Source: Trypanosoma brucei (lineage: Eukaryota). Taken from it: a stretch of 64,000 nt of DNA. Position numbers and translations under genes: made by a program. Below, in pieces: positions 12,099-60,666 of the stretch (position 1 is the stretch's first letter; each line of letters opens with the position of its first letter). Below the pieces are notes generated by a model, which made no database searches, was not told the origin of the DNA, and saw only the letters and a list, made by a program, of their open reading frames with translations. The stretch is from the NCBI GenBank assembly GCA_000002445.1, contig CP000066.1, positions 800,001 through 864,000 on the forward strand. The letters are read 5' to 3'.

Positions 12099-12937
12099 AT
12101 GCTTCTGAAGGCAATGCCAACACACCTACCACAAAATACGCGTCTCACTGAATGTAAGGAGAGGGGTAAAAGAGAAAACAAAGAACAAACATCCGTTTTC
12201 TTTTTTGTTTGGCAAACAGATAATGTTGGGTGAAAGCACGGGAAGCAGCCGAGCAGACTACCACAGGGGCACAAAGACAGAGGTGAAAAGGGGGTTCAAC
12301 AGGAGGATGCCACCAGCGCATACATATATATATATGTGTGTATATGAGTGGGGTACCTCCGATAAGGAAGGAAGGTAAACTTTATTTTTAAAAAAATAGG
12401 ATAAGGAACGCCAAGAAACAGTAACTTAATGGGCTGCACATATGTGTGTACGCAAACAAACACACACACACACGCAAGCACCAACATTCCTCGTCCATTT
12501 TCCACTTCTCATAGCTCTCCGTTTTTTGTTCTACCTACCAGGGGCTCGGACACAACATATTTGTTGTTATCGGTATATGTGTATTTGCTGGTGTTGCCGT
12601 GGTTTTAGTTGTGTTTTTCTTTTTCATTATAATGCTCTTTGTAATTATTCCCTTTTTATTTTGTTCTTTCATGGCTGCCCCAACGACCATTTACTTGCAG
12701 CTGCAATGATTCACATCCAGTGCGCACGTACATCCGTGCACTCCTGACAAGAAAATAAGTTGGAAGCTTTAAAGCGCCTGATCCAACACAAATTAGCTGT
12801 GGCGCACACACACGTACATTCACATTCATTAATAGCAGTATCAAGATCAACATGGAAATCATCGGCTGCAAAAACGCACACACGCACGTGTATAAATATG
12901 CATATGTTGAAGATACAAATTTATTTATGCTTATATA

Positions 12938-13000
12938 TATATATATATATATATAAGCATATATATAAGCATATATATATATATATATATATCGTCTCCC
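12938..13000. repeat. (TA)n microsatellite with interspersed AAGCA
   Basis: tatatatatatatatataagcatatatataagcatatatatatatatatatatc read directly. Confidence 0.9.
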
Positions 13001-13205
13001 TCCCTGACGCACAGGTATAATAATTAGCCCATCAGTCAGATGCAAGTGCAGTGTAGATATACAACACGGCATCTGTCCAATATATATATTATAAACAGAG
13101 AAAGCGAGAGCGAAAAAGAAGGGGAAGAAAGATCTCATTCTCCCCATACATATATATATATATATATATATGTACGTTCCCCGTCGACTTAACGGCTCCG
13201 CAGCT

Positions 13206-14409
13206 TTACTTCAGGTCTTGTAACAGGTGCAGCACCTGATGCACCTCTAAAAATTTGACACGGGGCCAATGCATTGCACGATCATTCCGCTGAAATGACC
13301 ACGGAATGGAGTCATTGTTACATCCCTCCTTCACAGCGTGGTGAAACTCGCCACACGCCTCAGTAAACAGAGACGGCTGTGGGGTGGGACCCCCCTCCTT
13401 TGCCTTAACACCTATGAGGAAATTGACAGACAAAAAACATGAAGAACCCCCCACGTGATTATCCTTTTTGGGCCTTATCTTACGCGGACAGGGACGGGCC
13501 TGTGCATGACGCTCTATGGAGTATATGAGGATTCGTAACCTGCTGGCCACATAGGAACTCCACACAGAAAGCGCCTGCTCAGTCTCCGCCATACTGTGGC
13601 CCGCACAACTTACACCCACAACAAGAAAGGTTGAATACTCTTCCTCTATTCTATACGGTTCCCACATCTCTTCCAACGGGAGAGTCCGCGCCTCCGTCAG
13701 AATGCATTGCACCCGTGTGATCTCGCTGTAAAGCGCCTCCAGCCCACATCGCCCAACGCTACTTGCATCGTTCACATATGGATACGCCGGACTGATCACG
13801 GGAAACAAATCGCAGCAAATTTTATCTTTCGACGGCTTCCATGAGTCTGGCAGCCCGGGAATGCGACCGCGACCCTCCAGAGTCGCAGTCAAATACACGG
13901 GTGAAATACGATCATGGCGGCTCATCCATTGCGTGTAGAAAAGAAAGAAAAATCGAAGAAGAGTACTGGGATGAGAAGATGGAAGCACCTGACAAACCCT
14001 AGCCACCATGATGGCAAGCACCGCGCCGTTCGGATACGTGTAGACATTGCCGTAAACCATCCGACGCATCGCCCATAGCTTTACTGTCTTCAGAACGGCA
14101 GTGAAGACATCGTACGGCACCGGAAGTCGCCGCTTAATCTCAAACGTGAAACGGATTCCGTTCGCACTGGGTCGGGTTTCTCGAGCCACCTTCAGTAGAA
14201 ACGAATCATCCAGCATCTGCTCCTCCGTAGGCGGCTGTGGCAGTCCAACAGAAACAAACACAACATCGACAGCTGTGCCTCTGTACTCAAATTTAACAAC
14301 GGGAACTCTGGCAGCGACTACAGACACGGGACCGACAGAGTTATATAACAACCTCGGAAACTCATCGAAAAAGATATCAGTCGTTAAAACAGATGGACAA
14401 ATCAGCGCG
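13206..14409 (-). CDS. PAP1: Poly(A) polymerase PAP1, exon 2 (central domain and C-terminus)
   Basis: Translation contains TTDIFFDEF...VPVVKFEY...VDVVF and FFFLFYTQW, the canonical-PAP central-domain signature. The frame is open upstream only to 14411, where a TGA stop sits. The minus-strand acceptor context is TTTGTGAAG|CGCGCTGATTTGTCCA, with a T10 tract about 75 nt upstream. Confidence 0.8.
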
Positions 14410-15059
14410 CTTCACAAATTCAACGTAATTCGGCGTTGTGATTGTTGTTGGTTGAAATGGTATGGTTGCGGGGTTTTGACAAAAAAAAAATGGAAAATCA
14501 GCATCCGTGTTTGCCGTCAGTACCATGTGCGGGTCACGAGTGCCACGACGACGAACAGACTCACATCAACAAAATATACACATATACACAAATGTATACG
14601 TGTACATATATGATTATACATGTATATGCATATTTAGATAATCACATCATTAACGAAGGAAGAAGCAATGGTCAATGTTGGAAATAAACACAAATGTATA
14701 GACAGTGAAAGCGAAACAGCACGCAGATCAGCCACGAAGGTTCGACAACCACGGCAAGATGAACGCGTCCAGACGTCGACAAGGCGATGGCGGCACGTGA
14801 AACGAGGAACAGGGAACGATGTGAGGAGGGGAAGAAAAGAAGAGGACGGGAGAAGAGCAGGGAAAAGATTACACGTAAAGCAGAAGCACGTTCCTTTAAG
14901 GGTTCACATGATCCAACATAAAATGAAAAAGGACCCAGAACACCAAAAAGGAAAAGAATAGTAAAGAAAGAGAGGAAGAAGAGGGGAGATGCATATACAA
15001 AGAGAGGAGAAAAGAAGAAGGGAGTAGAAAGGAGGGATTAAGGAAAGAACTCACCATAC
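14410..15059 (-). other. PAP1: cis-spliced intron of PAP1 (approx. 650 nt, GT..AG)
   Basis: On the minus strand the 5' end reads GAT GT|GTATGG and the 3' end reads ...TGAAG|CGCG. Joining 15060 to 14409 restores the reading frame, giving ...FGSCGLSASVAESDLDV-ALICPSVLTTDIFFDEF..., which parallels the PAP consensus GSDID.L.V.P..V.R.DFF. In-frame stops lie inside the interval. Confidence 0.7.
14465..14495 (-). promoter_or_regulatory. Polypyrimidine tract (T10, coding strand) upstream of the PAP1 intron 3' splice site
   Basis: Plus-strand a10 at 14481-14490 corresponds to T10 on the minus strand, about 75 nt 5' of the AG at 14411/14410. Confidence 0.45.
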
Positions 15060-15319
15060 ACATCGAGATCACTCTCTGCAACTGAAGCGGAAAGACCGCA
15101 TGAACCAAATGGGTAGGCACGTGCCCATTGTTCCTGAGTGTTTTGGGAGTGCCGCTGCACAATGCGAAGCGCCATCGACTCCACTAGCGTTAAAACCGGA
15201 TTGGGACTAATGGAAGGGCATTCGGCCAACACGCCGTAAAGCATCTCAGACTCGTCGTAGTCATGGTCTTGTGGACGGGGAACCTCTAGTGGTTTCGTTG
15301 GGCCATACATCCACTCCAT
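15060..15319 (-). CDS. PAP1: Poly(A) polymerase PAP1, exon 1 (N-terminal nucleotidyltransferase motif)
   Basis: MEWMYGPTKPLEV...LTLVESMALRIVQ...AYPFGSCGLSASVAESDLDV matches the PAP N-terminus, including the FGS.....SD.D catalytic motif. ATG at 15317-15319. The ORF-track start at 15421 is GTG and gives a low-complexity leader. Confidence 0.7.
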
Positions 15320-15460
15320 CAAATAAAGTGTTTCTTCCTTCAACGTAACACATAGAAGTAAAAGAAGCCACACAAGCGGGGATATTGAAAAAATGGAAAG
15401 GTGAGAAAAAAAATAGAGCACATAAAAAGGTGCATCAACGCGTAGGAAAGTGGAGGAGGC

Positions 15461-15462
<2 letters not shown>

Positions 15463-15498
<36 letters not shown>
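15463..15498. repeat. (TA)17 microsatellite in the PAP1 upstream region
   Basis: catatatatatatatatatatatatatatatatatcg read directly. Confidence 0.9.
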
Positions 15499-15499
<1 letters not shown>

Positions 15500-15896
15500 T
15501 TCCTAGGAACAAAGTGACAGGTGGTTGAAGGGCAACAACTGGAGTATCTGGTATGTTTGCTCTATAAATACACTGCATGTTCCCAGGCCACTGCCACTTG
15601 GCTAATAACCTTGAACTATGCACTTACGCATAGCCGGTAATATGCTGCCCACTCACTCAACACAACGAACGAAATCAGTGGCGTGGGTGTTTCCACGATG
15701 GCACACACGATCGTAGTGGAAGAAAAAAAGAGGAAAGAAGTGTGGAATATTTCATACATTCATATGTCTCTTCGACACCCGAAAGACGATATCTCTACTT
15801 TGCTGCCACACATACACACACACACACATACGCACAGCTACATAGCCCGCAAGCCCCTCGCCGCGATATTCAACTCGGCACGTTAGTGTGACTCCT

Positions 15897-17861
15897 CTAG
15901 ACGGCGGCACGAGGTAGATAATCCGAGCTTGCTGACAGCTTCATTACTTCCTCATGGAGAATGCTGCTCGAGTGGGGAATAACAAAGCGGTCCCCAGCTG
16001 AAGCCACAAGCGCCTGCCCGTCGGTCAGTTGGTCAACGGATGTTACCTCACAACCTGTAGCGTCGTATATTGTGTCCACTTTCTTCCCAAGAGCGTGCCA
16101 CTCCAACTCCCTCTCGACTGTGTTCATGACGGCACGCATCGTTTTGTGCGCAGGCCTTAGTGTTACGGTACGAAAGGGGAATCGGTCGTTATTCCTGTCG
16201 CCATACTCTCCGTTCTCAAACACACGCACGGATATCGGTCTCAGGATTCCCTTTCCCGGGGCTGTATGGGGAGCACAATGCACTCTCTCCTGCTGTTTCG
16301 GCTGCTGTTTCGGTTGTTGCTTTGGTTGGCCACCTGCTGCACCAGAACCTCCAATCGAATGTGACTTCCTCACGGGCGTGCCCGTGGCAGGCCGGCCAGC
16401 CGGAATCCTCGAAGCCTCCGCACTTGCTGCTTCCACCTTTACACCCTTTGAGGGCGCCGGAGGGCAAGCATACACATGACCAGTCGTTGCCACAAGAGAT
16501 ATGCCATCCGTGATAAACTCCGCACGTGCGATTTCAACGCCTTCAGTGGTGAACAAACGCTTCACCCGCCTTCCAGAGGACTCCCAACCAAGCGCTTGCG
16601 TGAGTATATCTAATACACACGGCAGTGTCTTTGCTTGTCCGCTCAGAACAACTTGCTTAAACTGCAATGCAATTTGCCCAGGAAGCACTCCTGCCACCTT
16701 GCACCGCCTCGGCTTCGCAGTCACATCCTTGCTATCAAGTCGTGGAATCCCCGTGGCTCCATCATTCAGGGAGTATTTAGGCTGGTAATTTGTTGGACAG
16801 CCGGTGGGTAGGGAACGATGGTTTCCACCCCTGGGAACACATGCTTCCGGCGGTTTCACCTGAGGAGACGCAATTTCAACGGCTGGTGACTCGCGAGGAC
16901 CGCGGGACCCTGGAGGGCGGCTGCTCGCCAATGCAACACCACCGCTGCCCCTCTCCCTCGGAGTATTTAACGGTTTCGCAGCTCCGTCCTTCTTCTGGAC
17001 ACGAGACTTCGTGGTTAACGTAGGAGAAACTCCCTCAGTCCTCAGAGTGTCAGATCCCGATCTCCTAGTTTCCGTACAACTAGACAGCGAAGGGTTGCTT
17101 TCAGCAGCAGCACGAGCGGAGGAAGAAACCAGCATCGGCTTGCCCCCACAGCGAATAATTGTGGGGGGAGCTGGTGTTGCCGCATTCCACAGTTCGTCCG
17201 TCGATGGAAGCCTTGTCGAGTCAAATCTCTTATTTGCTTTTAACTCCGAAGACCTCCTAAGCTCCTTAGCATTCTGCACACAAGCTGCACGCCTTAGTTC
17301 CCCAATCATTTCCCATGTAGGCTGCGGGGGGGCCTCAGGCTTCGACTGAGGGGTAACACCAGGAGCGGTTTCACCTCCAGTGGAAGTCTCACAACGCGGT
17401 TTCTGTTGCCCAGAGCTATTCTTCGCAGAACCTCTCCCTCTATCCTCGATGTCAAGGCACTCAGTGAGAAATACTTTGGAGGCACCGTCAGCGAATCTCA
17501 TCTCTACTGCTGACTTTCCTTGAAATGAGGGTATGACACGGGTGATCTTCCCTCGTTCGCCCAGGTACACTTGTTTCACAGGGTCAGGAATAAAAATGCC
17601 TTTTTCCTCACGGAGTAAAGTGGACATATCGTCGATCGTCTGAACATAGTCCCCAACACGCAGAATCATCTCTCCCACTTTGAGGGAAGTTGGCTCCTCC
17701 TCAGCTGCCTTTCTCAGGGCTGCCTGGGCAACCTCCGCAGCGGTCATCTCTAAATTCTTGCCAGCCAGCTCATCAAACGCCCTCTGTTCCCTCTCCCTCT
17801 CCTGACGGAGGATCTCAAGCTTTAACTGTATTTCCTCCCGCTTCGATGCCGCTGTATGCAT
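15897..17861 (-). CDS. Hypothetical protein with N-terminal coiled-coil and two C-terminal doublecortin (DCX)-like ubiquitin-fold domains
   Basis: 654-aa ORF with ATG at 17859-17861. Two segments (…RRVKRLFTTEGVEIARAEFITDGISLVATTG… and …KKVDTIYDATGCEVTSVDQLTDGQALVASAGDRFV…) fit the DCX pattern (R.F.NG...v...l.dG...Va.g). The middle is low-complexity S/P/G-rich with a QPKQQPKQQPKQQ stretch. Confidence 0.6.
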   Translation of the reverse strand: MHTAASKREEIQLKLEILRQEREREQRAFDELAGKNLEMTAAEVAQAALRKAAEEEPTSLKVGEMILRVGDYVQTIDDMSTLLREEKGIFIPDPVKQVYLGERGKITRVIPSFQGKSAVEMRFADGASKVFLTECLDIEDRGRGSAKNSSGQQKPRCETSTGGETAPGVTPQSKPEAPPQPTWEMIGELRRAACVQNAKELRRSSELKANKRFDSTRLPSTDELWNAATPAPPTIIRCGGKPMLVSSSARAAAESNPSLSSCTETRRSGSDTLRTEGVSPTLTTKSRVQKKDGAAKPLNTPRERGSGGVALASSRPPGSRGPRESPAVEIASPQVKPPEACVPRGGNHRSLPTGCPTNYQPKYSLNDGATGIPRLDSKDVTAKPRRCKVAGVLPGQIALQFKQVVLSGQAKTLPCVLDILTQALGWESSGRRVKRLFTTEGVEIARAEFITDGISLVATTGHVYACPPAPSKGVKVEAASAEASRIPAGRPATGTPVRKSHSIGGSGAAGGQPKQQPKQQPKQQERVHCAPHTAPGKGILRPISVRVFENGEYGDRNNDRFPFRTVTLRPAHKTMRAVMNTVERELEWHALGKKVDTIYDATGCEVTSVDQLTDGQALVASAGDRFVIPHSSSILHEEVMKLSASSDYLPRAAV

Positions 17862-18609
17862 CTTTTACGAGTGTTTCACAAATTAAAATAACACAATGGG
17901 CCGTCTTCCCACAGAGCCTTTACGACAGTACTAACCAGTCAGTCCAGCAGAATAAAGCAAAGAAAAAACAGGGCTGTTGCAGAGAGTTAAGATGCTAGCT
18001 CATGTCGATGAGTGAAAGAAAGAGTGTAGAAAAAGAAAGCTACCAGCAGGTGCTTACGAAAAAAACAACACTCACGCCCTTTTTCACCAAAGGAAGTGCA
18101 GCACATGGTTTAACACACACACAAAAACTTCCCACTCACAACGAAATAAAGGCAACAACACACCTCAACATCCAAGTTATTGTCACCACACACATAATTA
18201 CACACGCACGCATATGCGTGCAAGCATCAAACAAAAAAAAGAACAAAACAGAGCGATTACGCTAGTTGTGAATGAACAACAGAAACACAACCAGGCTACA
18301 CCCTCTCAACACAAGTACCACCACATATTCACATTTCTATGTATGTACGTGCTCAACGAAAACGAAAGGTGGCGAAAGCACGAAACAAGCCCCAACACAG
18401 GCATATGCAATAACAGCACAACACAAACTAGTAAAAGGAACAGTGAACCGCCATATCACACACCTTCAATAAGATTAATTGCTAACATTTTTGGTATCCT
18501 CCATTTTACCTGTGAAGGATTCATCGTCAAATGAAACTAAAGAAGGGTAGAAAACAAAGAAAACACCAAATAAGGTACCTGACGCAGCGGCAACACCACG
18601 TCGACTTGC

Positions 18610-20760
18610 TTAAGCATTCCCAGAAGAGGCACCAAATGAGAAGGGATTCCGTGGAGCATTGTTCTTTTCACCACTTGCTGAAGCATTCCCAGCAGAGGCA
18701 CCAAATGAGAAGGGATTCCGTGGAGCATTGTCCTTTTCACCACTTGCTGAAGCATTCCCAGCAGAGGCACCAAATGAGAAGGGATTCCGTGGAGCATTGT
18801 CCTTTTCACCACTTGCTGAAGCATTCCCAGCAGAGGCACCAAATGAGAAGGGATTCCGTGGAGCATTGTCCTTTTCACCACTTGCTGAAGCATTCCCAGC
18901 AGAGGCACCAAATGAGAAGGGATTCCGTGGAGCATTGTCCTTTTCACCACTTGCTGAAGCATTCCCAGCAGAGGCACCAAATGAGAAAGGATTACTCGGG
19001 GTGCGAGTGACACCTGAAGTTGAACCTGCAGTTGGAGATGGTGACCCGTCTTCGTCATCACCTCCAGCGTTGTCAGCGAAACCCTCATCATCAAACGGGA
19101 CAGCAGATGGGCCACTTTTAAAGAAACCACCAGATGAAGCTGTCTTTGAAGTCACAGCCCCAATACCCGAGCTCGCTGCAGCACTTCCAGCAGAGGCACC
19201 AAATGAGAAGGGATTCCGTGGAGCATTGTCCTTTTCACCACTTGCTGAAGCATTCCCAGCAGAGGCACCAAATGAGAAGGGATTCCGTGGAGCATTGTCC
19301 TTTTCACCACTTGCTGAAGCATTCCCAGCAGAGGCACCAAATGAGAAGGGATTCCGTGGAGCATTGTTCTTTTCACCACTTGCTGAAGCATTCCCAGCAG
19401 AGGCACCAAATGAGAAGGGATTCCGTGGAGCATTGTTCTTTTCACCACTTGCTGAAGCATTCCCAGCAGAGGCACCAAATGAGAAGGGATTCCGTGGAGC
19501 ATTGTTCTTTTCACCACTTGCTGAAGCATTCCCAGCAGAGGCACCAAATGAGAAAGGATTACTCGGGGTGCGAGTGACACCTGAAGTTGAACCTGCAGTT
19601 GGAGATGGTGACCCGTCTTCGTCATCACCTCCAGCGTTGTCAGCGAAACCCTCATCATCAAACGGGACAGCAGATGGGCCACTTTTAAAGAAACCACCAG
19701 ATGAAGCTGTCTTTGAAGTCACAGCCCCAATACCCGAGCTCGCTGCAGCACTTCCAGCAGAGGCACCAAATGAGAAGGGATTCCGTGGAGCATTGTCCTT
19801 TTCACCACTTGCTGAAGCATTCCCAGCAGAGGCACCAAATGAGAAAGGATTACTCGGGGTGCGAGTGACACCTGAAGTTGAACCTGCAGTTGGAGATGGT
19901 GACCCGTCTTCGTCATCACCTCCAGCGTTGTCAGCGAAACCCTCATCATCAAACGGGACAGCAGATGGGCCACTTTTAAAGAAACCACCAGATGAAGCTG
20001 TCTTTGAAGTCACAGCCCCAATACCCGAGCTCGCTGCAGCACTTCCAGCAGAGGCACCAAATGAGAAGGGATTCCGTGGAGCATTGTCCTTTTCACCACT
20101 TGCTGAAGCATTCCCAGCAGAGGCACCAAATGAGAAGGGATTCCGTGGAGCATTGTCCTTTTCACCACTTGCTGAAGCATTCCCAGCAGAGGCACCTGAT
20201 GAGAAAGGATTACTCGGGGTGCGAGTGACACCTGAAGTTGAACCTGCAGTTGGAGATGGTGACCCGTCTTCGTCATCACCTCCAGCGTTGTCAGCGAAAC
20301 CCTCATCATCAAACGGGACAGCAGATGGGCCACTTTTAAAGAAACCACCAGATGAAGCTGTCTTTGAAGTCACAGCCCCAATGCCCGAGCTCGCTGCAGC
20401 ACTTCCAGCAGAGGCACCAAATGAGAAGGGATTCCGTGGAGCATTGTCCTTTTCACCACTTGCTGAAGCATTCCCAGCAGAGGCACCAAATGAGAAGGGA
20501 TTCCGTGGAGCATTGTCCTTTTCACCACTTGCTGAAGCATTCCCAGCAGAGGCACCAAATGAGAAGGGATTCCGTGGAGCATTGTCCTTTTCACCACTTG
20601 CTGCAGCACTTCCAGCAGAGGCACCAAATGAGAAAGGATTCCGTGGAGCATTGTTCTTTTCACCACTTGCTGAAGCATTCCCAGCAGAGGCACCTGATGA
20701 GAAGGGATTACTCGGGGTGCGAGTGGTACCTGAAGTTGGGCCTGCGACGTGTGCAGCCTT
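18610..20760 (-). repeat. Nested coding tandem repeat: 69-nt (23-aa FG) unit inside an approx. 290-560 nt super-repeat
   Basis: Near-identical 69-nt copies are visible at 18665, 18734, 18803 and onward. The spacer block recurs at approx. 18985, 19549, 19841, 20202 and 20698, with variable numbers of 69-nt units between. Confidence 0.85.
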
Positions 20761-21588
20761 TTCCCCATCTCTATTCGTGCCACGGTCAGTTCCACCACCA
20801 AGCCCTTCTGCCTCAAATGTCACACGCCTCAATAGGTCTTGCCGCATAGTTGAAGACGCATCTGCATCGCCTTGGTCGCGCCTCCGCTTCTCTGGAGTGG
20901 GGCGGGGAGCCAATATAGTCGACCTGTACGAAGGCCGTGACGGCCGTATCGTGTAACGCGGCTCGTTGAACCTTGCCAATAACAGAGGATCCACGGTGGG
21001 TAGATTATTTGATGGAGCGGCGTAGTAGAAGTTGTATTGATAATGGTGCGTGTAAGGCCCAGTCTCCGGTTCTATCATCTGGGACCCACGCTGATGGGCA
21101 TTACCAGCAAATTCACCGGGCCTCACAACAACGGGATTGCACTCCGCTCGCGCAACTGCCGCTACTCCTGAGCGATGCGACTGCATATGCATGGTGTTCG
21201 CTGCCGTGGTTACATTATTAGTTATGGGTGGTACCGGCGAGTTTGTCTGGGATGGTGGCGCATGTGAGGAAGCTACTGAGTCTGGCGTTGGACCACACCG
21301 GCTGGCGTCAGCCCCGCCCACGGTGGTCACTCCCAAAACGGCTCGCATGACACCTTTAGCCAAACCGCCGAGACGCGTCATACACCACGCCAAACTGCCG
21401 CTTACACGAGCGATATTCGACATGTTTTTCTGGTGATCAACCTCCTCACCGTTACGCAAGACGACCGTACCTGTTGATACGCCATGGCGAGACATCGCTG
21501 AGTGGTCTCCAAACCGGTGAGACGAGGTGGGCGTAAAGGAATCCTTCTTGGCACAAAGGCGTACGGTTATACGCGGCCGCTCACGCAT
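18610..21588 (-). CDS. FG-repeat nucleoporin, possibly TbNup98
   Basis: About 990 aa. The N-terminal ~280 aa are non-repetitive. The remainder is tandem 23-aa units NPFSFGASAGNASASGEKDNAPR (FG/SFG type), interspersed with a recurring ~50-aa spacer (GIGAVTSKTASSGGFFKSGPSAVPFDDEGFADNAGGDDEDGSPSPTAGSTSGVTRTPS). First ATG at 21586-21588 (the track start is TTG). Confidence 0.8.
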   Translation of the reverse strand: MRERPRITVRLCAKKDSFTPTSSHRFGDHSAMSRHGVSTGTVVLRNGEEVDHQKNMSNIARVSGSLAWCMTRLGGLAKGVMRAVLGVTTVGGADASRCGPTPDSVASSHAPPSQTNSPVPPITNNVTTAANTMHMQSHRSGVAAVARAECNPVVVRPGEFAGNAHQRGSQMIEPETGPYTHHYQYNFYYAAPSNNLPTVDPLLLARFNEPRYTIRPSRPSYRSTILAPRPTPEKRRRDQGDADASSTMRQDLLRRVTFEAEGLGGGTDRGTNRDGEKAAHVAGPTSGTTRTPSNPFSSGASAGNASASGEKNNAPRNPFSFGASAGSAAASGEKDNAPRNPFSFGASAGNASASGEKDNAPRNPFSFGASAGNASASGEKDNAPRNPFSFGASAGSAAASSGIGAVTSKTASSGGFFKSGPSAVPFDDEGFADNAGGDDEDGSPSPTAGSTSGVTRTPSNPFSSGASAGNASASGEKDNAPRNPFSFGASAGNASASGEKDNAPRNPFSFGASAGSAAASSGIGAVTSKTASSGGFFKSGPSAVPFDDEGFADNAGGDDEDGSPSPTAGSTSGVTRTPSNPFSFGASAGNASASGEKDNAPRNPFSFGASAGSAAASSGIGAVTSKTASSGGFFKSGPSAVPFDDEGFADNAGGDDEDGSPSPTAGSTSGVTRTPSNPFSFGASAGNASASGEKNNAPRNPFSFGASAGNASASGEKNNAPRNPFSFGASAGNASASGEKNNAPRNPFSFGASAGNASASGEKDNAPRNPFSFGASAGNASASGEKDNAPRNPFSFGASAGSAAASSGIGAVTSKTASSGGFFKSGPSAVPFDDEGFADNAGGDDEDGSPSPTAGSTSGVTRTPSNPFSFGASAGNASASGEKDNAPRNPFSFGASAGNASASGEKDNAPRNPFSFGASAGNASASGEKDNAPRNPFSFGASAGNASASGEKDNAPRNPFSFGASAGNASASGEKNNAPRNPFSFGASSGNA

Positions 21589-37685: not shown

Positions 37686-38654
37686 TCACGCAGAACCTGC
37701 GAGAAGATCCTTCAAACGCCCATCGAAGCGCGTCGTTGGGAAACAGAGTTTAAACATACCCAAAAGTGCCTTGGCCGCAGCCGCCTCTTCGTTCTGAGAC
37801 TTGGGCCTTGGACGCTTAAACGAAAAACTACTCTGACTTGGCGTGACGCCTGCGGAGGTTGATGAATCCAACAACTGAGCGGATCTTACGTATCCGGTAT
37901 TTTCCAAAACAACCCCCGAGGAGATATCGGTGGCTTGCTCACACGTTGAATTCGGGACCTCCGCCTTCAGTTGGGTCGGAAAGGAAGGCCCTTCGACGGC
38001 AGAAGCGGCACTGCCGGCCACCGCCCCGCTCAAGGAGGATCCCCAAACTGAGGGATCAAGGATGACGGGAGGTGGAGAAACGTTGGAGCTCTCACTTGGG
38101 GACGGCCATGCGCTTCCTTGGCACGATGGTTCCAGACTGTTGCATTCATCAACGTTCAGTCCTTCACCACCTTCATCCCCCTGAGTGCCGCCGACGCTGT
38201 ACTTTTCACCCTCTTTGTGGTCTTCTTCAGCACTTGCCCCACTGCAGTCATCTATCATCATTTCAGATTCATCATAACACTCCTCATCCCCCTCCCCTTC
38301 TTCTTCGTCCCCCTCATCATCCACGGCTTCCTCCTCCTCTTCTTCGTCCCCCTCATCATCCACGGCTTCCTCCTCTTCTTCTTCGTCCCCCTCATCATCC
38401 ACGGCTTCCTCCTCCTCTTCTTCGTCCCCCTCATCATCCACGGCTTCCTCCTCCTCTTCTTCGTCCCCCTCATCATCATCATCCTCTTCGCCCATTACCG
38501 TTCCACCTTTTCCGTCGGACTCCTCATATGTCCCTTCCTCATTGCTCACACCCTCCATCTCCTCATGAAAGGAAGAGTTGGACGATGGCAGCTCAACGGA
38601 ACTCTCTTGTTCATCGTCATCGACGACGAAATGATTGTCATCGTGAAAGCTCAT
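37686..38654 (-). CDS. Acidic tandem-repeat protein (hypothetical)
   Basis: About 320 aa with five copies of AVDDEGDEEEEEE in the middle. The rest is D/E-rich. ATG at 38652-38654. Confidence 0.5.
   Translation of the reverse strand: MSFHDDNHFVVDDDEQESSVELPSSNSSFHEEMEGVSNEEGTYEESDGKGGTVMGEEDDDDEGDEEEEEEAVDDEGDEEEEEEAVDDEGDEEEEEEAVDDEGDEEEEEEAVDDEGDEEEGEGDEECYDESEMMIDDCSGASAEEDHKEGEKYSVGGTQGDEGGEGLNVDECNSLEPSCQGSAWPSPSESSNVSPPPVILDPSVWGSSLSGAVAGSAASAVEGPSFPTQLKAEVPNSTCEQATDISSGVVLENTGYVRSAQLLDSSTSAGVTPSQSSFSFKRPRPKSQNEEAAAAKALLGMFKLCFPTTRFDGRLKDLLAGSA
38300..38500 (-). repeat. 39/42-nt coding tandem repeat x approx. 5 (acidic 13-aa unit)
   Basis: The unit ttcgtccccctcatcatccacggcttcctcctcctcttc recurs head-to-tail on the plus strand. 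Confidence 0.8.
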
Positions 38655-40817
38655 GCCGCCCCAACTGTGCACGAACCCTCACCGTACCCAGCAGCCGTGG
38701 GGAGGAGAACGAACTGTGACCCCGAAAGGCAGTAACGCATAGCGGTGATGTTAATAGTAGCGAATAAGCAAATCCAAAGAAAGTGAGGAAACGAAGCGGT
38801 ACGGTGAAACGCAGAGGCGGAACTGGAAGAAATATGATAAAAAGCAAACCCAATTACACATCGGATGTTTGTCAACTACTTCGTAGTTCGCAAATTAAAC
38901 AAAAATTAGGAGATAAACAAAAAAATGAAAAAGTACCTTGACCCCAGCCCGACACAGAAAAAAAAACCTGAGTAGTTTATCCATAATTATAATAGCAGTG
39001 ACTTAGGGACAAAAATATGAAAATCAGCAAAAAAATGACCATGAAGGAACAAAAAAGAGGGGAGTCTGCTAGCAACAGTAATAGCAATCAAACTCCAAAA
39101 GAAAAAAAGGGACAAATATACAGCGCGTTACCGGTTGTTGCTCAACATTTGGTCAGCCAATAGTTTCTTAATTACCTTGTTTCTATTAACCTCTCTTTTA
39201 TTTGACTCCCCAACCACCATTAATGACCTTCCAACGTACAGGTTGCGCTTTAGAGTGTTCCCCTCTTTTCTCCCCCTTTTCCTTTTCCTTTGATTTTGTT
39301 TTGAATCCATTCTCTTCCGGTTAGTCTTGCTTTGTTGCTGTTGTTATTGTTTTTTGATGGGGAGGGGCCGTTAGTGGCTTCTTCAGTCACCATTTCATAC
39401 ATATTACTCCTTCGATCCTCTCTTCTTCCTTCTCTTTATTTGATTTCCCCATCCCTTCCAATGCGCATCCCTTAATTTAAGGTTTGGAATACACTTATCA
39501 TCGCAGTGAGAGGATGTCCCCATTTCCCATACACACGTTCATACAAATACATGCATATACATACACATATATCACCCCCCTTTAGCACACCCGGAAGTTC
39601 GTACGCTTTTAAAGGTGGGCTGAAGTGAATTGGGAAAGTTGGGTTGCGTGACTGAACAAACAAACAAAACTACGCGCACACACACACACACACATGCAAA
39701 ATCATACGCATACATGTATAAATAAACATATACATATATGTTGACAGCATCAATACTACTGTGAGGCACGAGAGACGACGAGCGTCTCTCCTTTTTTTCT
39801 TCACCCTCTCCTCCATCTATTTTGAGTCTTACTCGTACAACCCAAAGGCATGTATTGATGTTGTGTGCAGTGCGGTGGTGGCAACGGTAACAATAAAGCA
39901 AGTGACAGAGGAAGGAAGGAAGGAATGAAGGAAAGAGGAGGGAATAAACCACTAGTGGAGAAATGATATAGAGAAATATAGGGGAAAGGGGAAAAAATGA
40001 ACGAAGAAATGAATGGAAAATAAACCAAAGGAAGGGGGAATGGAAGGAAACAACTTCCTTCCCTTTGTTGCTCCTTCTGTCCCAGAAGCACTCACCCCAC
40101 TCCTCCGCTGATCACGCACAATTATTACAAGCACCACTCATTTCACATTAACAGTTGGTGTACATTTTTCCACTGTCCCTTCTTGGTGATAGCCTGCTAA
40201 ATTTTGTTACATGCTGTTCCCCCCCCCCTTTCACAGCTGTTTGCTTTTCTTATTCCTATCCGAGCTTTATCACACAAGCAGATTACTTGGCATTGCTTTC
40301 GTCCTCATCATTCGGTCCATGTGTTCACCATTGATTTCTCTAATTCATTGATCTCCACTACATTTTCTTCACATATTCTCACCCCTCATGCATGTTTGTC
40401 TGGCTTGTCGGTATTCGCCTCCCCATTCACACAAGTGTCTCGCCCCTTTTGTGGAGAAGATCAAAGAGACAAAACTAAAAAAGGAAAAATCAAAAAGAAG
40501 AATAAGAGGGGTCCAACGCGCTGGGGTCACGTGGCCTTAATGCGCCTTTCTGTTTTCATCCTCATTTATTCTCATCATATTCCTTTCCCTCATTTGTCCA
40601 CTTACCCTCATTAAACCCCATAAAATTCGTTTTGGTGTGAATATTCTCCTGTTTTTAACACTTCTTTTTTTCCGTCTGATCGATGATGCTGCTGTTGTTT
40701 TAGTTTCTTAACTCTGTTTCGTGGCCCTCCCGGCTCACGCCTGGCTGACGTGGCGATATATCAGAGAGTGCCCTCCTCATTCTCCCTTTCCCAGAACTCC
40801 GTTACCAGAGGGTCATT

Positions 40818-55192: not shown

Positions 55193-57223
55193 CTACTCAC
55201 ACCATGCAGTGCGGTTATTTTCGCACAGTTGAAGGGTGAAACGGAGATGAGGGAGAAACATCACCACTGCTTCCATCATTGGTGCCACCACATATGTTAT
55301 AAATGACTTCTGTCCTTCAGGGAAGTCTTTGTCGCTCGTTTTACGATTCATGAAGGGGGAAATGGAGAGGTTGCTCCTCTCTTCTTCATCACCCTGCTTG
55401 TAGAACTCTTGTGCAATATACGAAGACCATTCCGAGTATATGTAATAGGGACGAATGCAATTTGAGAGATCGGCTGTTTTGATGCTCATAGAAAGTGCCA
55501 CAAGAACATCCTGTTTGTTCGCACTCCAGTCACTAGCCTCTACCAAGCGCGACTGGAACCTCTTCAGTATAGTTCCGTGATTTGACATATCCGTGGCTAG
55601 AACCATTTCTACCATTGTCTCGCGTACAGTGCGGAACTGCTCGTCATTCAGTGGTGCCAGAACGTTGTAAGACGGGTGCTTCAGCAACTGAAAGACGGAA
55701 GCTATGTGATGGTTTTCAAGGATTGACCTATCGTTGTAAAGTGTGCTCAAGTACGCATTCGTTCTAGTGTGAAAATTGTTATTCAAACCGGGGTGATCAA
55801 AGTCATGGACGGCTGCAGCGAGCACGGCGCCCAGCTGCTCCTCCGGCCGCAGCTGGCACCTCTCCTTCATTCCAGCGATAAAAATAATGTAGTAGTTAAC
55901 CTGCGTGACGTCTGCCGCATGCATCGAGTTGTGATAGGGATTGGGGTGATATCCCGATTGGACACCAAGTAGAAAGCGCTGCAGTGTCGCGTCGTCAAGT
56001 TGAAAGCGGGCCACTAGATCCAATTTATAAAGAATCGTGTAAGTCGTATAAAAGAGAGAGTTGCCATTTGTCATTATCTCTAGGCGGATCACATCGTAAC
56101 CCCATTTATCAATGCCACAAAGAATTTCAAGTACATCCCTCACAGCCTGCCTGGAAGAATTGTCGAGCAACGGTTGCAGCTCAGGAAGGTCCAAGACGTC
56201 CATCGCGCTCTCAGCAGGAGCACCGGGAGGGAGTGGAAAGGCTGCGCGAATGCACGCCAAAACGACCGTGTCAACGTCAGTTTCAACCGGGTAATACTTC
56301 ACTGCCTGCGTCGTGTGTTCAAAGTACTGTGCGCCCCCCTTGTCGTACAGCACATCTAATGGATCCTTTGAGGGTGGGGCAGCACACAGCAGGCGCAAAC
56401 GCTTTCTCAAATCATTGACACAGAAGGCAAGTTCCATTGTTTTCTGCGCCGCCACGGAAGATTCTTCCCGTAGCGGCTTCAAATCAGCAAGCAACCTCTC
56501 CACCTTCTTTTTGCTCTCTTGTAGCATCGCAGAACGCACGACACGCTCACACTCCAGAGATTCCAGAGAGAGACGTGGACAAATCATCTCGCTCCGGCGT
56601 CGGCGTATTTGAGTCATTCGAGTCATGGGCTCCACAATATATTCTACAACACGTACTCTGTAGTCTTCGTCACCGGGAAGTGAGACAAGGGGAAGCTTGC
56701 AAATGTATTTGTACATTAGGTCCGACTCTTTTATATTGGTAACGGTAAAATTCACATTTTTACCACCACCCGGAGCGGGAGTCACCGTTGCCTTTTGTCT
56801 TTGAACATCCGATGCAAGGGACTTGAAGAACGATCCCCATGAAAACGTGATGCCGGCGTCATCTTTCGAGTCTGCGAGCTCCTTGTCTGTGAAGGAGTGG
56901 GCGAATATTGCCCTCGTGTCGTGCTCAAGGTATGACACTGTGAAGTCGATGTGGTCTGTTGTGCAGTACAAAAGCAAAATACCAGCGGACGGCATATGTG
57001 CCACCGGTCGATCGTCCATAACAACTGCCCCTTGACTTATAATGTACTTCTCCTTTCCAAGCATGCGGGGCGGGTCCGACTGCTCCAAAGGGACCCTCAC
57101 CACCGCCTTCAGCTCCTTCAAATCGCTACTAGTGGACAATATATAATTTTCGCCTCTAACAGTTGTCGGAGACACACTACTCCCTTTAGAGTATGGAAAG
57201 AGCGTTGCGATTCCACAGCCCAT
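55193..57223 (-). CDS. Class I 3',5'-cyclic-nucleotide phosphodiesterase (catalytic domain C-terminal), possibly PDED-like
   Basis: PDE catalytic signatures YHNPYHNSMHAADVTQ, AAAVHDFDHPGLNNNF, LENHH and VLATDMSNH. ATG at 57221-57223. The N-terminus begins MGCG. Confidence 0.88.
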   Translation of the reverse strand: MGCGIATLFPYSKGSSVSPTTVRGENYILSTSSDLKELKAVVRVPLEQSDPPRMLGKEKYIISQGAVVMDDRPVAHMPSAGILLLYCTTDHIDFTVSYLEHDTRAIFAHSFTDKELADSKDDAGITFSWGSFFKSLASDVQRQKATVTPAPGGGKNVNFTVTNIKESDLMYKYICKLPLVSLPGDEDYRVRVVEYIVEPMTRMTQIRRRRSEMICPRLSLESLECERVVRSAMLQESKKKVERLLADLKPLREESSVAAQKTMELAFCVNDLRKRLRLLCAAPPSKDPLDVLYDKGGAQYFEHTTQAVKYYPVETDVDTVVLACIRAAFPLPPGAPAESAMDVLDLPELQPLLDNSSRQAVRDVLEILCGIDKWGYDVIRLEIMTNGNSLFYTTYTILYKLDLVARFQLDDATLQRFLLGVQSGYHPNPYHNSMHAADVTQVNYYIIFIAGMKERCQLRPEEQLGAVLAAAVHDFDHPGLNNNFHTRTNAYLSTLYNDRSILENHHIASVFQLLKHPSYNVLAPLNDEQFRTVRETMVEMVLATDMSNHGTILKRFQSRLVEASDWSANKQDVLVALSMSIKTADLSNCIRPYYIYSEWSSYIAQEFYKQGDEEERSNLSISPFMNRKTSDKDFPEGQKSFITYVVAPMMEAVVMFLPHLRFTLQLCENNRTAWCE

Positions 57224-58696: not shown

Positions 58697-60253
58697 CTAG
58701 CGGCAGGCAGAACCAGTTGGTGGTGACTCAGCGCCACAGCAGCTTCCAGCCCCCTCGGGGTTACAAACACGATTGTAGATGCGCTCGAACACGGAAAAAT
58801 CACAGAGTGAGTGGGAGCTATGACCAGAAAGCTTTAGCTGCCTCTCTCTCTCTGACCTTGCACACCCTTGCGAGGCAAGTGGCCAACCTGCCCTCCTAAC
58901 ATGACGGCGAGGGGGAAAAGGGCTTCCCTCATCCAGTGAATTAAACCCCGAAGTTTGTGATTCGGATGCCCGCCCGAGAAACAGGGATGTCTCACACCTC
59001 TGCAACGACCCGTCATGTTGTGGACGCCAACGAGACCCCCGCGACTGCATCGTACGCATCCGACCGCCCCGGGGGGCATCTTTATCGCTGAAAACTTTTG
59101 GCACATGAGAAGTACCTGAGCCAGCCAGCGGTCGCCCTGGCTTGAAAGTGCAGTCCTTTAGCTGATTTTCCTCTTGTAACACTCGCAACTCGTTTAATTT
59201 CGCCTCCCTCTGATCCTTCCATTTCTGGCACCGTGCAACAACACTCCTTGAATCGCTCACACGCGTCCGTTGTCGAAAACGCTCCCTCGAGTATGCGTCA
59301 CGCCGCCCAAATCGTCCCAAGTTTCCTTCATGATACATGGTTTGCGACCACGGCGAATACTCGGTTAGATCTCTATTCAAATATAATGAGTGCTCGTTAA
59401 AATGGGGCGCACTACGGCACCGCCGCGGACCCAAACCGATCGGGTCGGGATCGACGTGCTGACACGCCAGAGCCAAAGATCTGTCGGAGCCGTGCGATAA
59501 CGGCGCACGCAATCCCCAGACAGAGCCCTCGGTCCGTGGTGCTCTTCCGGCAAAACTATGCCCCTGTCGCTCTCTATTCAAGACCGCTGCCCCTTCACCT
59601 ACAAACACAGCACTCGCTCCTGCTTTTGTCTGTACATTTTCCCCTCTCAAAGACAGTTGAGCACACATATTGTACATCGCAACGTCTTCAAGCCGCGCAT
59701 CAGCTGTGGCGATTCCAGCTAGGTGGTGACTACCACATTTTCCCACATGTCCCTCCCCCACATTACACCTCAACCACGCTGGGGTGCACTTACCGTTACC
59801 GCCGACGCTCCCACGGTTTGACAGCAAAACTTGACCACCGCCCCGCTGGTCCATTGGCATACCCAACAATTCTCCCTGCTTTGACTGCAGTGGGAGCCTC
59901 TGAACACCGCCATCACGTGCCAACGCAGATGTAAGTCTTTCCGTGGGATTCCGGAGGTCCCGTCCAGCAGCGGCGTCGGATGTAGCTAAGCCACTGGCGT
60001 TGTGCGACCCCTCTCCCTCTGCAGCCCCCGCATGAGCATCGGCGCCTAATTTGCTGCAGCCGACCCCTCGAGGGTCCCGCTGACACCAACTATCCCACTC
60101 ATCGGCAACCCCACCGTAAGTCACTCGATCATTTAGCTCGCTCCGCATGAGACATTCCGGCAACGGGGCTTCGAGAGCGCTTAACACACGTTTTTCGAAT
60201 GACCGTAGTGCCGACGACGCCTTCTCGCAGCCTTCGTCAAAACAATCTCCCAT
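58697..60253 (-). CDS. Hypothetical protein (no recognisable domain)
   Basis: ORF 58697..60448. I place the start at ATG 60251-60253 (MGDCFDEGCEK…), because the upstream 65 codons look like translated AT-rich UTR. Composition is codon-like, but I see no family signature. Confidence 0.4.
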   Translation of the reverse strand: MGDCFDEGCEKASSALRSFEKRVLSALEAPLPECLMRSELNDRVTYGGVADEWDSWCQRDPRGVGCSKLGADAHAGAAEGEGSHNASGLATSDAAAGRDLRNPTERLTSALARDGGVQRLPLQSKQGELLGMPMDQRGGGQVLLSNRGSVGGNGKCTPAWLRCNVGEGHVGKCGSHHLAGIATADARLEDVAMYNMCAQLSLRGENVQTKAGASAVFVGEGAAVLNRERQGHSFAGRAPRTEGSVWGLRAPLSHGSDRSLALACQHVDPDPIGLGPRRCRSAPHFNEHSLYLNRDLTEYSPWSQTMYHEGNLGRFGRRDAYSRERFRQRTRVSDSRSVVARCQKWKDQREAKLNELRVLQEENQLKDCTFKPGRPLAGSGTSHVPKVFSDKDAPRGGRMRTMQSRGSRWRPQHDGSLQRCETSLFLGRASESQTSGFNSLDEGSPFPPRRHVRRAGWPLASQGCARSERERQLKLSGHSSHSLCDFSVFERIYNRVCNPEGAGSCCGAESPPTGSACR

Positions 60254-60666
60254 TTGAATGTTTCTTCGGCCCGGCACATACAAAGAAAAAAAATGATGGC
60301 AATAATAATGAAAAGGCGCCATGCAAGTACGCGGAAGCCCACGCGGAAAAAAGGGATAACGGAGAGTATCGAAAATGCGAAGGAGAACGTACCATGGGAA
60401 ATATAGCTTATAAATCGCGACCGAAACAAGAACTAAAGAACTGAACATATATTTACAACGGAAACCGTGCTAGAAACGCAGTGTGGGTTTCGCTTCTTTA
60501 CTTCAGAGATTTCTACCCTCCCCCCACCCTAACCCGTTGCGTATCCATCCGTTGTCCAAGGGGACCTCATGACGAAGCAAACTCCTAAGTATATCATTAT
60601 ATGGTAATCCATATATTATCCTCGATGATTGTGTGTCGCGCAATAGCGCACGTCAAGTTCTCCATA

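What the first reader, a model, noticed from the sequence alone, without database searches (positions are those of the whole stretch)
13206..15319. Split poly(A) polymerase: a genuine GT..AG cis-spliced intron in an otherwise intron-free array
Two neighbouring minus-strand ORFs each encode half of a canonical PAP. The upstream one has the catalytic FGS…SDLD motif. The downstream one has …DIFFDEF…VPVVKFEY…FFFLFYTQW. They are separated by about 650 nt that contain in-frame stops. On the coding strand the upstream boundary reads GAT GT|GTATGG, a 5' splice site. The downstream boundary reads (T)10 … TTTGTGAAG|CGCGCTGATTTGTCC, a polypyrimidine tract followed by AG. Joining 15060 to 14409 restores the frame and yields SDLDV-ALICPSVLTTDIFF, which matches the conserved PAP junction GSDIDxLxVxPxxVxRxDFF. 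Trypanosomatids almost never use cis-splicing. PAP1 is one of only two known intron-containing genes in T. brucei, with a reported intron of about 653 nt. The sequence here independently recovers that exception and supports assigning the locus to T. brucei chromosome 3.
Basis: partly seen in the sequence, partly recalled or inferred. Interest (0 to 1): 0.85.

Follow-up and report, generated by a model that had tools for sequence, protein, structure and literature searches.

The report
Known trypanosome PAP1 cis-spliced intron

Summary
On the minus strand, exon 1 is 15319..15060, a 650-nt GT..AG intron is 15059..14410, and exon 2 is 14409..13206. They join in frame into a 487-aa protein. That protein is residue-for-residue identical to the annotated poly(A) polymerase of T. 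brucei brucei TREU927 (Tb927.3.3160, PAP1).

The joined protein has one continuous PAP nucleotidyltransferase domain. It aligns without a gap across the junction to solved yeast and human PAP structures.

The intron sits at the same phase-2 codon position in T. cruzi, T. vivax, T. grayi, T. theileri and a metagenomic kinetoplastid. In all four Trypanosoma orthologs it starts with the invariant GTATGGTGAG.

Published RNA-seq split reads, U1 snRNP crosslinking and knockdowns already establish cis-splicing of this gene (PMC2926603, PMC4041458, PMC12592628, PMC11613528).

- The intron is 650 nt here, not 653.
- Three intron-containing genes are now known in T. brucei, not two.
- U1 pairs mainly with +5..+12 GGUGAGUU.
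- The T10 tract lies 71 nt upstream of the AG.

Verdict: real, correctly interpreted and already known, so low novelty.

The parts
15334..15445 (-). Pyrimidine-rich tract and first downstream AG dinucleotides (15339/15338 and 15335/15334) just upstream of the start codon. This is the inferred spliced-leader trans-splice acceptor region for exon 1.
   Evidence: Sequence read. The published RNA-seq found 12 tags defining trans-splicing of exon 1 (PMC2926603). The exact acceptor was not determined here, so this is inferred.
15060..15319 (-). Exon 1 coding part (260 nt; ATG at 15319; residues 1-86 plus the first two bases of codon V87). It carries G72-S73 and catalytic D84 (15070..15068) and D86 (15064..15062).
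   Evidence: D84 and D86 align to yeast Pap1 D100 and D102. The N-terminus and length match P0001 exactly.
15048..15059 (-). 5' splice site motif GTATGGTGAGTT. The first 10 nt are invariant in the window and the four other Trypanosoma species. It is the U1 snRNA pairing site.
   Evidence: The duplex with the U1 5' consensus AACUCACCUGCA scores -14.3 kcal/mol. GTATGGTGAG is unique in the 64-kb window. U1C and U1-70K iCLIP tags peak here (PMC4041458).
14410..15059 (-). Cis-spliced GT..AG intron, 650 nt, phase 2. It interrupts codon V87 immediately after the second catalytic Asp. It is 66% pyrimidine and has only 4 AG dinucleotides.
   Evidence: The 4 AGs compare with 18.4 expected from mononucleotide shuffles (none of 2000 shuffles had as few). 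Removing it reproduces the annotated protein.
14823..15049 (-). Pyrimidine-rich 5' third of the intron (intron positions about 11-237, with several pure pyrimidine runs of 10-27 nt). It is a likely binding platform for the PTB-like protein DRBD3 and the region where exon-1-only transcripts are polyadenylated when DRBD3 is depleted.
   Evidence: Composition and runs are. The functional link is an inference from PMC12592628, which reports that DRBD3 associates with the PAP1 intron and that intronic polyadenylation follows its depletion.
14481..14490 (-). T10 tract, the last pyrimidine run of at least 9 nt before the 3' splice site (71 nt upstream of it).
14412..14559 (-). 148-nt AG-free zone, so that the 3' splice-site AG is the first AG downstream of the T10 tract.
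   Evidence: shuffle P = 0.015. Equivalent AG-free zones of 150-204 nt occur in T. cruzi, T. vivax, T. grayi and T. theileri.
14410..14411 (-). 3' splice-site AG. It is also reported to serve as an internal SL trans-splice acceptor, giving the SL-exon 2 isoform.
   Evidence: [quoted passage not shown] PMC4041458 and PMC11613528 report the SL-exon 2 isoform.
13206..14409 (-). Exon 2 coding part (1204 nt including TAA at 13208..13206; residues 87(3rd base)-487). It holds the third catalytic Asp D135, the rest of PAP_NTPase, PAP_central and a divergent C-terminal region.

Best explanation
What it is. The region is the T. brucei nuclear poly(A) polymerase gene PAP1 (Tb927.3.3160). It lies in a minus-strand polycistronic unit and is interrupted by one spliceosomal GT-AG intron of 650 nt in phase 2.

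Proposed mechanism, with the basis for each step:
1. The pre-mRNA receives the spliced leader upstream of ATG 15319 (reported in the literature).
2. The 5' end of U1 snRNA, together with U1C and U1-70K, pairs with the extended 5' splice site GUAUGGUGAGUU. The pairing was computed here; the crosslinks and knockdown effects are from the literature.
3. The spliceosome uses the first AG downstream of the T10 tract. A 148-nt AG-free zone keeps that choice unambiguous (the zone is shown in the sequence; its role is inferred).
4. Joining 15060 to 14409 puts catalytic D84 and D86 from exon 1 together with D135 from exon 2, giving an active 487-aa canonical-fold PAP (shown by alignment).

Competing outcomes. 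Cis-splicing competes with SL trans-splicing onto exon 2 and with polyadenylation inside the intron. The PTB-like protein DRBD3 and the U1 snRNP favour the cis outcome (literature). An SL-exon 2 mRNA has its first in-frame ATG at 14216 (M153), so it could encode only a protein lacking all three catalytic Asp residues (inference).
For: - Junction and translation.
- Exact identity to the TREU927 poly(A) polymerase.
- PAP_NTPase (residues 6-181) is continuous across the junction at 97.6 bits, against 32.3 and 59.1 bits for the separate ORFs. PAP_central scores 123 bits.
- Ungapped alignment across the junction to S. pombe Pla1, yeast Pap1 and human PAP-gamma, E about 1e-33. D84, D86 and D135 match the catalytic triad.
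- The chosen junction is the only nearby frame-restoring pair whose junction spacing matches the homologs.
- The same phase-2 position occurs in the window and five other kinetoplastid loci. GTATGGTGAG is invariant in the window and the four other Trypanosoma species.
- Conserved gene order: a DCX-domain gene upstream and a gene of about 750-790 aa downstream.
- U1 pairing of -14.3 kcal/mol.
- AG depletion and the AG-free zone.
- Literature: split reads (PMC2926603, PMC2936537); U1C and U1-70K iCLIP and knockdown (PMC4041458); DRBD3 dependence and intronic polyadenylation (PMC12592628); survey across Kinetoplastea (PMC11613528).
Against: - No RNA data could be examined here, so splicing itself rests on published work.
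- U1 complementarity does not discriminate on its own. The site ranks 32nd of 7364 GT sites in the window by duplex energy.
- The branch point was not identified.
- The PAP_RNA-bind domain scores below Pfam's threshold (17.7 against 24 bits), so the C-terminal part is divergent.
- The exact record could not be fetched by the look-up of encoding contigs. The chromosome assignment therefore rests on the protein's source name, the record length and the gene ID in the literature.
Confidence: 0.97

Rival explanations
1. The two ORFs are separate genes. Each is trans-spliced and polyadenylated on its own, and the 650 nt between them is an ordinary intergenic processing region rather than an intron.
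For: - The interval looks like a trypanosome intergenic region, being pyrimidine-rich with a poly-T tract and then an AG.
- Public annotations of T. vivax, T. grayi and T. theileri do call two separate genes here.
- SL-exon 2 transcripts and exon-1-only polyadenylated transcripts exist (PMC2926603, PMC11613528, PMC12592628).
Against: - Neither ORF alone has a complete nucleotidyltransferase domain, and the catalytic triad is split between them.
- The exact phase-2 junction and the 10-nt 5' motif are conserved across species while the rest of the interval is not.
- Split reads span the junction, and the separate-exon isoforms are minor or appear on perturbation (PMC2926603, PMC4041458, PMC12592628).
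Confidence: 0.02
2. The intron is real but uses the alternative donor at 15050 (GGTGA|GTTCTT) with the same acceptor. That would give SDLDVYGDALICP, three residues longer.
For: This pair also restores the frame.
Against: - It inserts 3 residues relative to T. cruzi, T. vivax, T. grayi, T. theileri and the solved PAPs, all of which have exactly the spacing given by 15059/14409.
- The annotated protein matches the 15059 junction.
- The conserved motif starts at GTATGG, and the iCLIP peak lies at -1..+3 of the annotated site (PMC4041458).
Confidence: 0.01
3. The region is a disrupted pseudogene, meaning an insertion into a former PAP gene, and makes no functional product.
For: In-frame stops lie between the two halves.
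Against: - Both exons are intact and conserved, at 47-62% identity across Trypanosoma.
- The interruption is at the same base in the window and five other loci.
- Tagged PAP1 protein is detected and its depletion has RNA phenotypes (PMC12592628, PMC11613528).
Confidence: 0.005

Closest known systems
T. brucei PAP1 / Tb927.3.3160 poly(A) polymerase with its cis-spliced intron (Mair et al. 2000, RNA 6:163; cited in PMC11613528, PMC4041458, PMC2926603)
   Same: It is the same gene. The spliced translation is identical over 487 of 487 residues. The intron obeys GT/AG and has the extended conserved 5' splice site shared with T. cruzi.
   Different: Nothing of substance. The T. cruzi CL Brener intron is 303 nt here. 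The original figures could not be checked because the paper is not held. Small differences between strains or in counting are plausible.
The other kinetoplastid cis-spliced genes: DBP2B (Tb927.8.1510) and RBP20 (Tb927.8.6440)
   Same: All are single GT-AG introns in genes for nuclear RNA-metabolism proteins. All depend on U1 and DRBD3 and compete with trans-splicing (PMC11613528, PMC12592628).
   Different: - The PAP1 intron is phase 2, against phase 1 for DBP2B and phase 0 for RBP20.
- It is the shortest of the three.
- It has the longest conserved 5' motif.
- It splits a catalytic domain rather than separating a domain from a low-complexity tail (PMC11613528).
Canonical eukaryotic nuclear poly(A) polymerases (yeast Pap1, S. 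pombe Pla1, mammalian PAP alpha and gamma; PDB 1fa0, 7q74, 1q78, 4lt6)
   Same: The nucleotidyltransferase and central domains match, as do the G-S...D-x-D...D catalytic signature and its spacing.
   Different: - The protein is shorter, at 487 aa.
- The C-terminal RNA-binding domain is only weakly recognisable.
- It is reported to polyadenylate snoRNAs and lncRNAs rather than bulk mRNA, which is the role of PAP2 (PMC11613528).

Membership tests
Spliceosomal (U2-type, GT-AG) cis-spliced intron | GT at the 5' end and AG at the 3' end of the removed segment | tested here: met
   GTATGG...GTGAAG at 15059..14410.
Spliceosomal (U2-type, GT-AG) cis-spliced intron | Removal restores one open reading frame that is colinear with intron-free homologs | tested here: met
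   The CDS is 1464 nt and the product 487 aa. It aligns ungapped across the junction with Pla1, Pap1 and PAP-gamma. This is the only nearby GT/AG pair with the spacing seen in the homologs.
Spliceosomal (U2-type, GT-AG) cis-spliced intron | Position and phase conserved in orthologs while the intron sequence and length diverge | tested here: met
   Phase 2 after SD(L/I)D in T. cruzi (303 nt), T. vivax (362), T. grayi (268), T. theileri (380) and metagenomic locus L005 (117). Almost no 11-mers are shared beyond the 5' motif.
Spliceosomal (U2-type, GT-AG) cis-spliced intron | 5' splice site complementary to the 5' end of U1 snRNA | tested here: met
   Intron +5..+12 GGUGAGUU pairs with U1 nt 1-8 AACUCACC, and +1..+3 GUA pairs with U1 nt 9-11 (UGC), with +4 bulged; -14.3 kcal/mol. 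The U1 consensus comes from PMC11613528. Pairing energy alone is not unusual: rank 32 of 7364 GT sites.
Spliceosomal (U2-type, GT-AG) cis-spliced intron | Polypyrimidine tract upstream of the 3' splice site, and a branch point | tested here: inconclusive
   A T10 tract lies 71 nt upstream, followed by an AG-free zone. No branch point was mapped or predicted.
Spliceosomal (U2-type, GT-AG) cis-spliced intron | Spliced RNA observed (junction-spanning reads or cDNA) | not testable with these tools
   No RNA data are available here. The literature reports 13 tags exactly spanning the intron (PMC2926603), TopHat confirmation (PMC2936537), RT-PCR (PMC4041458) and split-read quantification (PMC12592628).
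Canonical poly(A) polymerase (Pol-beta-like nucleotidyltransferase) | PAP nucleotidyltransferase domain and PAP central domain above the curated thresholds | tested here: met
   PF20750 scores 97.6 bits (cut-off 27) over residues 6-181. PF04928 scores 123.2 bits (cut-off 27.1) over residues 188-328.
Canonical poly(A) polymerase (Pol-beta-like nucleotidyltransferase) | Catalytic G-S and three Asp residues | tested here: met
   G72-S73, D84 and D86 align to yeast G88-S89, D100 and D102. D135 aligns to the Asp of ISIDLI, yeast D154. That the yeast residues are catalytic is from established knowledge (Bard et al. 2000), not tested here.
Canonical poly(A) polymerase (Pol-beta-like nucleotidyltransferase) | C-terminal PAP RNA-binding domain | tested here: inconclusive
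   PF04926 scores 17.7 bits, below the 24-bit cut-off, and only profile positions 5-45 of 181 are matched.
Tb927.3.3160 (T. brucei TREU927 PAP1) | Identical protein sequence | tested here: met
   P0001 is 487 aa and the string comparison returned True.

The most novel reading that the evidence does not exclude
The intron may be a tuned decision point as well as a relic. Two features could be selected to arbitrate between cis-splicing, SL trans-splicing onto exon 2 and intronic polyadenylation. One is the long AG-free zone before the 3' splice site: 148-204 nt in all five Trypanosoma species, although the intron sequences are otherwise unalignable. The other is the pyrimidine-rich 5' block, where the T. 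brucei intron is also globally depleted of AG (4 against about 18 expected). Together they would make PAP1 dosage, and through it snoRNA and lncRNA polyadenylation, adjustable through U1 and DRBD3. The regulatory idea is already in the literature (PMC11613528, PMC12592628). Only the conserved AG-exclusion architecture may not have been described.
Probability: 0.3. Interest if true: 0.3.

Novelty: already known. Interest (0 to 1): 0.1.

Why it matters
The PAP1 intron was the first evidence that trypanosomes, which process nearly all mRNAs by trans-splicing, also keep a working cis-splicing machinery. It explains why they retain a U1 snRNP. Recovering it from raw sequence shows that the first-stage reading was accurate, and it identifies the window as T. 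brucei chromosome 3 around Tb927.3.3160. It adds no new biology.

Two by-products have practical value:
- The public gene models for T. vivax, T. grayi and T. theileri miss this intron and split the gene in two.

Tried and rejected
- Looking up the exact TREU927 record for P0001 with the look-up of encoding contigs returned nothing. The chromosome assignment therefore rests on the protein's source name, the record length and the gene ID.
- Mair et al. 2000 is not held under PMC1369903 or PMC1369902. A full-text search for '653 nt' found nothing, so the 653 and 302 nt figures could not be verified.
- The supplementary tables of PMC11613528 are not held.
- U1 duplex energy was tried as a stand-alone discriminator of the splice site and failed. 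37 GT sites in the window, this one included, score -14.3 kcal/mol or lower.
- Rfam at gathering thresholds and a tRNA scan of the window found nothing, so there is no evidence for an RNA of any curated Rfam family, or a tRNA, within the intron.
- Alternative junctions (15050/14409, 15059/14352, 15061/14360, 15082/14360, 15050/14352) were rejected. They add or delete residues relative to all homologs.
- Leishmania orthologs were not retrieved. The word-based protein search returned none at E <= 1e-10, and the genome collection covers only bacteria and archaea.
Full report
**1. Observation**

Read on the minus strand, the region holds an ORF at 15038..15421. Its product ends ...YPFGSCGLSASVAESDLDVYGEFFP*. 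A long downstream frame runs to TAA at 13208..13206 and contains DIFFDEF, VPVVKFEY and FFFLFYTQW.

- The 5' boundary is GATGT|GTATGGTGAGTT, with the exon ending at 15060.
- The 3' boundary is TTTGTGAAG|CGCGCTGATTTGTCC, with the AG at 14411..14410 and exon 2 starting at 14409.

The excised segment is 650 nt. Joining the exons from ATG 15319 gives a 1464-nt CDS and a 487-aa protein reading ...SDLDV-ALICPSVLTTDIFF... across the junction.

**2. Is the junction more than a convenient choice?**

I enumerated all GT..AG pairs that leave an open frame from ATG 15319 to the same stop. Only six have a donor at or below 15110 and an acceptor at or above 14330. Five of them delete 16-25 residues or add three (YGD or YGE). 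Only 15059/14409 gives the spacing seen in homologs. After the D-x-D there are exactly 15 residues to the FF, both in S. pombe Pla1 and yeast Pap1 and in the T. cruzi ortholog.

Pfam's PAP_NTPase model covers residues 6-181 of the joined protein in one stretch at 97.6 bits. The two separate ORFs match only profile positions 1-87 (32.3 bits) and 127-193 (59.1 bits).

**3. Identity**

The joined protein is 100% identical over 100% of its length to 'poly(A) polymerase [Trypanosoma brucei brucei TREU927]' (P0001), which sits on a record of 1,653,225 bp. A string comparison confirms that the two sequences are equal. The literature names this gene Tb927.3.3160, or PAP1 (PMC4041458, PMC11613528), which places it on chromosome 3.

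The surroundings fit a trypanosomatid polycistronic unit:
- Of the 26 ORFs of at least 220 aa, 22 are on the minus strand. The four on the plus strand each lie within a longer minus-strand ORF.
- The upstream neighbour (15897..17861) is a DCX-domain protein.
- The same order (DCX gene, PAP, then a gene of about 750-790 aa) is seen in T. cruzi, T. vivax, T. grayi and T. theileri. The metagenomic locus L005 keeps a faint DCX match upstream.

**4. Enzyme anatomy**

Alignment to yeast Pap1 (1fa0 and 2hhp, chain positions 78-266) gives these correspondences:

| PAP1 residue | Yeast Pap1 residue | Exon |
|---|---|---|
| G72-S73 | G88-S89 | 1 |
| D84 | D100 | 1 |
| D86 | D102 | 1 |
| D135 | Asp of ISIDLI (D154) | 2 |

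That these yeast residues are the catalytic triad is established knowledge (Bard et al. 2000) and was not tested here. The intron therefore interrupts codon V87, one residue after the second catalytic Asp, and splits the active site between the exons. PAP_central is strong at 123 bits. The C-terminal PAP_RNA-bind match is below threshold at 17.7 against 24 bits.

**5.

In each of the four other Trypanosoma loci, the exon-1 tblastn match ends at residue 87 and is followed at once by GTATGGTGAG. Choosing the acceptor that best aligns to the T. brucei protein gives the following.

| Locus | Intron length (nt) | Residues across the junction | Intron start |
|---|---|---|---|
| T. brucei (window) | 650 | SDLDV-ALICP | GTATGGTGAG |
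| T. cruzi CL Brener (L001) | 303 | SDLDI-VLFC | GTATGGTGAG |
| T. vivax (L002) | 362 | SDLDI-VLFC | GTATGGTGAG |
| T. grayi (L003) | 268 | SDLDI-VLFC | GTATGGTGAG |
| T. theileri (L004) | 380 | SDIDI-VVFC | GTATGGTGAG |
| Metagenomic kinetoplastid (L005, 33% aa identity) | 117 | SDIDV-LLVCP | GTATGTTGG |

All six introns are phase 2. For T. cruzi, the junction reproduces the database protein P0002 exactly.

Beyond the 5' motif the introns share almost no 11-mers. The conserved features are therefore position, phase and the 5' signal, as expected for a functional spliceosomal intron. PMC11613528 reports phase 2 for PAP1 across Kinetoplastea and a predominant 10-nt 5' motif.

**6. Splice signals**

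PMC11613528 gives the kinetoplastid U1 5' consensus as AACUCACCUGCA. RNAduplex pairs U1 nt 1-8 with intron +5..+12 (GGUGAGUU) and U1 nt 9-11 (UGC) with +1..+3 (GUA), leaving +4 bulged. The energy is -14.3 kcal/mol for T. brucei and -14.1 for T. cruzi.

This pairing is real but not discriminating by itself. The site ranks 32nd of 7364 GT sites in the window. GTATGGTGAG, by contrast, is unique in the window.

At the 3' end:
- The last pyrimidine run of at least 9 nt is T10 at 14490..14481, 71 nt upstream of the AG.
- The splice-site AG is the first AG after that tract.
- The preceding 148 nt contain no AG (shuffle P = 0.015).
- The equivalent AG-free zones are 167, 196, 150 and 204 nt in T. cruzi, T. 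vivax, T. grayi and T. theileri (P = 0.002-0.047 each).
- The whole T. brucei intron has only 4 AG dinucleotides, against 18.4 expected.
- Its first 240 nt or so are 72-96% pyrimidine in 25-nt windows.

**7. What is already known experimentally**

- Thirteen 76-nt RNA-seq tags exactly spanned the Tb927.3.3160 intron, 12 defined trans-splicing of exon 1, and 3 showed trans-splicing onto exon 2 (PMC2926603).
- TopHat analysis confirmed the same intron (PMC2936537).
[quoted passage not shown] Knocking down U1C, or blocking the U1 5' end, reduces cis-splicing and increases trans-splicing to exon 2 (PMC4041458).
- DRBD3 depletion lowers split reads and PAP1 protein, and produces exon-1 transcripts polyadenylated within the intron (PMC12592628).
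[quoted passage not shown] 2000, as summarised in PMC11613528).
- PAP1 polyadenylates snoRNAs and lncRNAs, and PAP2 is the main mRNA enzyme (PMC11613528).

**8. Mechanism, with its basis marked**

- Shown by sequence: the exon-intron structure, the restored frame and domain, the split catalytic triad, the conserved position, phase and 5' motif, the potential for U1 pairing, and the AG-free zone.
- From the literature: actual splicing, dependence on U1 and DRBD3, and the competing trans-splicing and intronic polyadenylation.
- Inferred: the AG-free zone makes the first-AG choice unambiguous. In addition, an SL-exon 2 mRNA has its first in-frame ATG at 14216 (M153), preceded by two short out-of-frame ORFs, so it could encode only a product lacking the catalytic triad.

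**9.

- The intron is 650 nt in this sequence. The figure of 653 nt could not be verified.
- Three intron-containing genes are now recognised in T. brucei: PAP1, DBP2B and RBP20 (PMC11613528, PMC12592628).
- U1 complementarity is carried mostly by GGUGAGUU rather than by GTATGG.
- The T10 tract is not adjacent to the AG.

**10. Verdict**

The feature is the well-characterised PAP1 intron, so it is already known and of low interest as a discovery. Its remaining interest lies in the annotation errors in other Trypanosoma genomes and in the conserved AG-exclusion architecture.

Noticed in passing
L002 2039-2584 and 3001-3861; L003 2133-2438 and 3001-3864; L004 2021-2329 and 3001-3858: Public gene models for T. 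vivax, T. grayi and T. theileri split PAP1 into an 'exon 1' ORF and an N-terminally truncated 'exon 2' ORF of 285-287 aa, so the intron was missed. Joining at GTATGGTGAG...AG gives full-length proteins of 485-487 aa.
   Followed up: yes
L005 2877-2993 (JGI metagenome 3300075642, contig Ga0633760_007923): A distant kinetoplastid-like PAP1 homolog (33% aa identity, with a faint DCX gene upstream) has a 117-nt intron at the same phase-2 position. Its 5' splice site is the variant GTATGTTGG. The intron length is a multiple of three and the intron contains one in-frame stop. The organism is unknown.
   Followed up: partly
window 18610-21618 (-), repeats 18604-20709: A 1002-codon ORF contains about 30 copies of a 69-nt (23-aa) unit, NPFSFGASAGNASASGEKDNAPR, plus higher-order repeats of 291, 360 and 498 nt at up to 98% identity. 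It looks like an FG-repeat nucleoporin. There was no Pfam hit.
   Followed up: partly
window 15897-17861 (-): The upstream neighbour of PAP1 is a 654-aa protein with a C-terminal doublecortin (DCX) domain (41.5 bits). It is syntenic with the upstream gene in the four other Trypanosoma loci, and L005 shows a faint DCX match in the same place.
   Followed up: partly
window 58024-58048 (-): The best U1-5'-end complement in the whole window (-18.9 kcal/mol, GGCAGGUGGGUGGGUG) lies in a G-rich stretch between the minus-strand ORFs 58697..60448 and 55193..57223, just upstream of a pyrimidine tract. It is probably chance, given that 7364 sites were scanned, and no intron is reported there.
   Followed up: no
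window 15466-15503, 13149-13172, 12932-12992: (TA)n microsatellites flank the PAP1 gene on both sides. TRF at score >= 80 reported only 12932-12992.
   Followed up: no
window 38291-38477: A 39-nt unit repeated 4.8 times in tandem (97% matches) lies inside the minus-strand ORF 37686..38672. On the plus strand it is CCTCCTCCTCTTCTTC-rich, so it probably encodes an acidic or Glu-rich repeat.
   Followed up: no
window 1-64000: Of the 26 ORFs of at least 220 aa, 22 are on the minus strand. The four on the plus strand each lie within a longer minus-strand ORF. There are no tRNAs and no Rfam family matches at gathering thresholds. This fits a single unidirectional Pol II polycistronic unit.
   Followed up: partly
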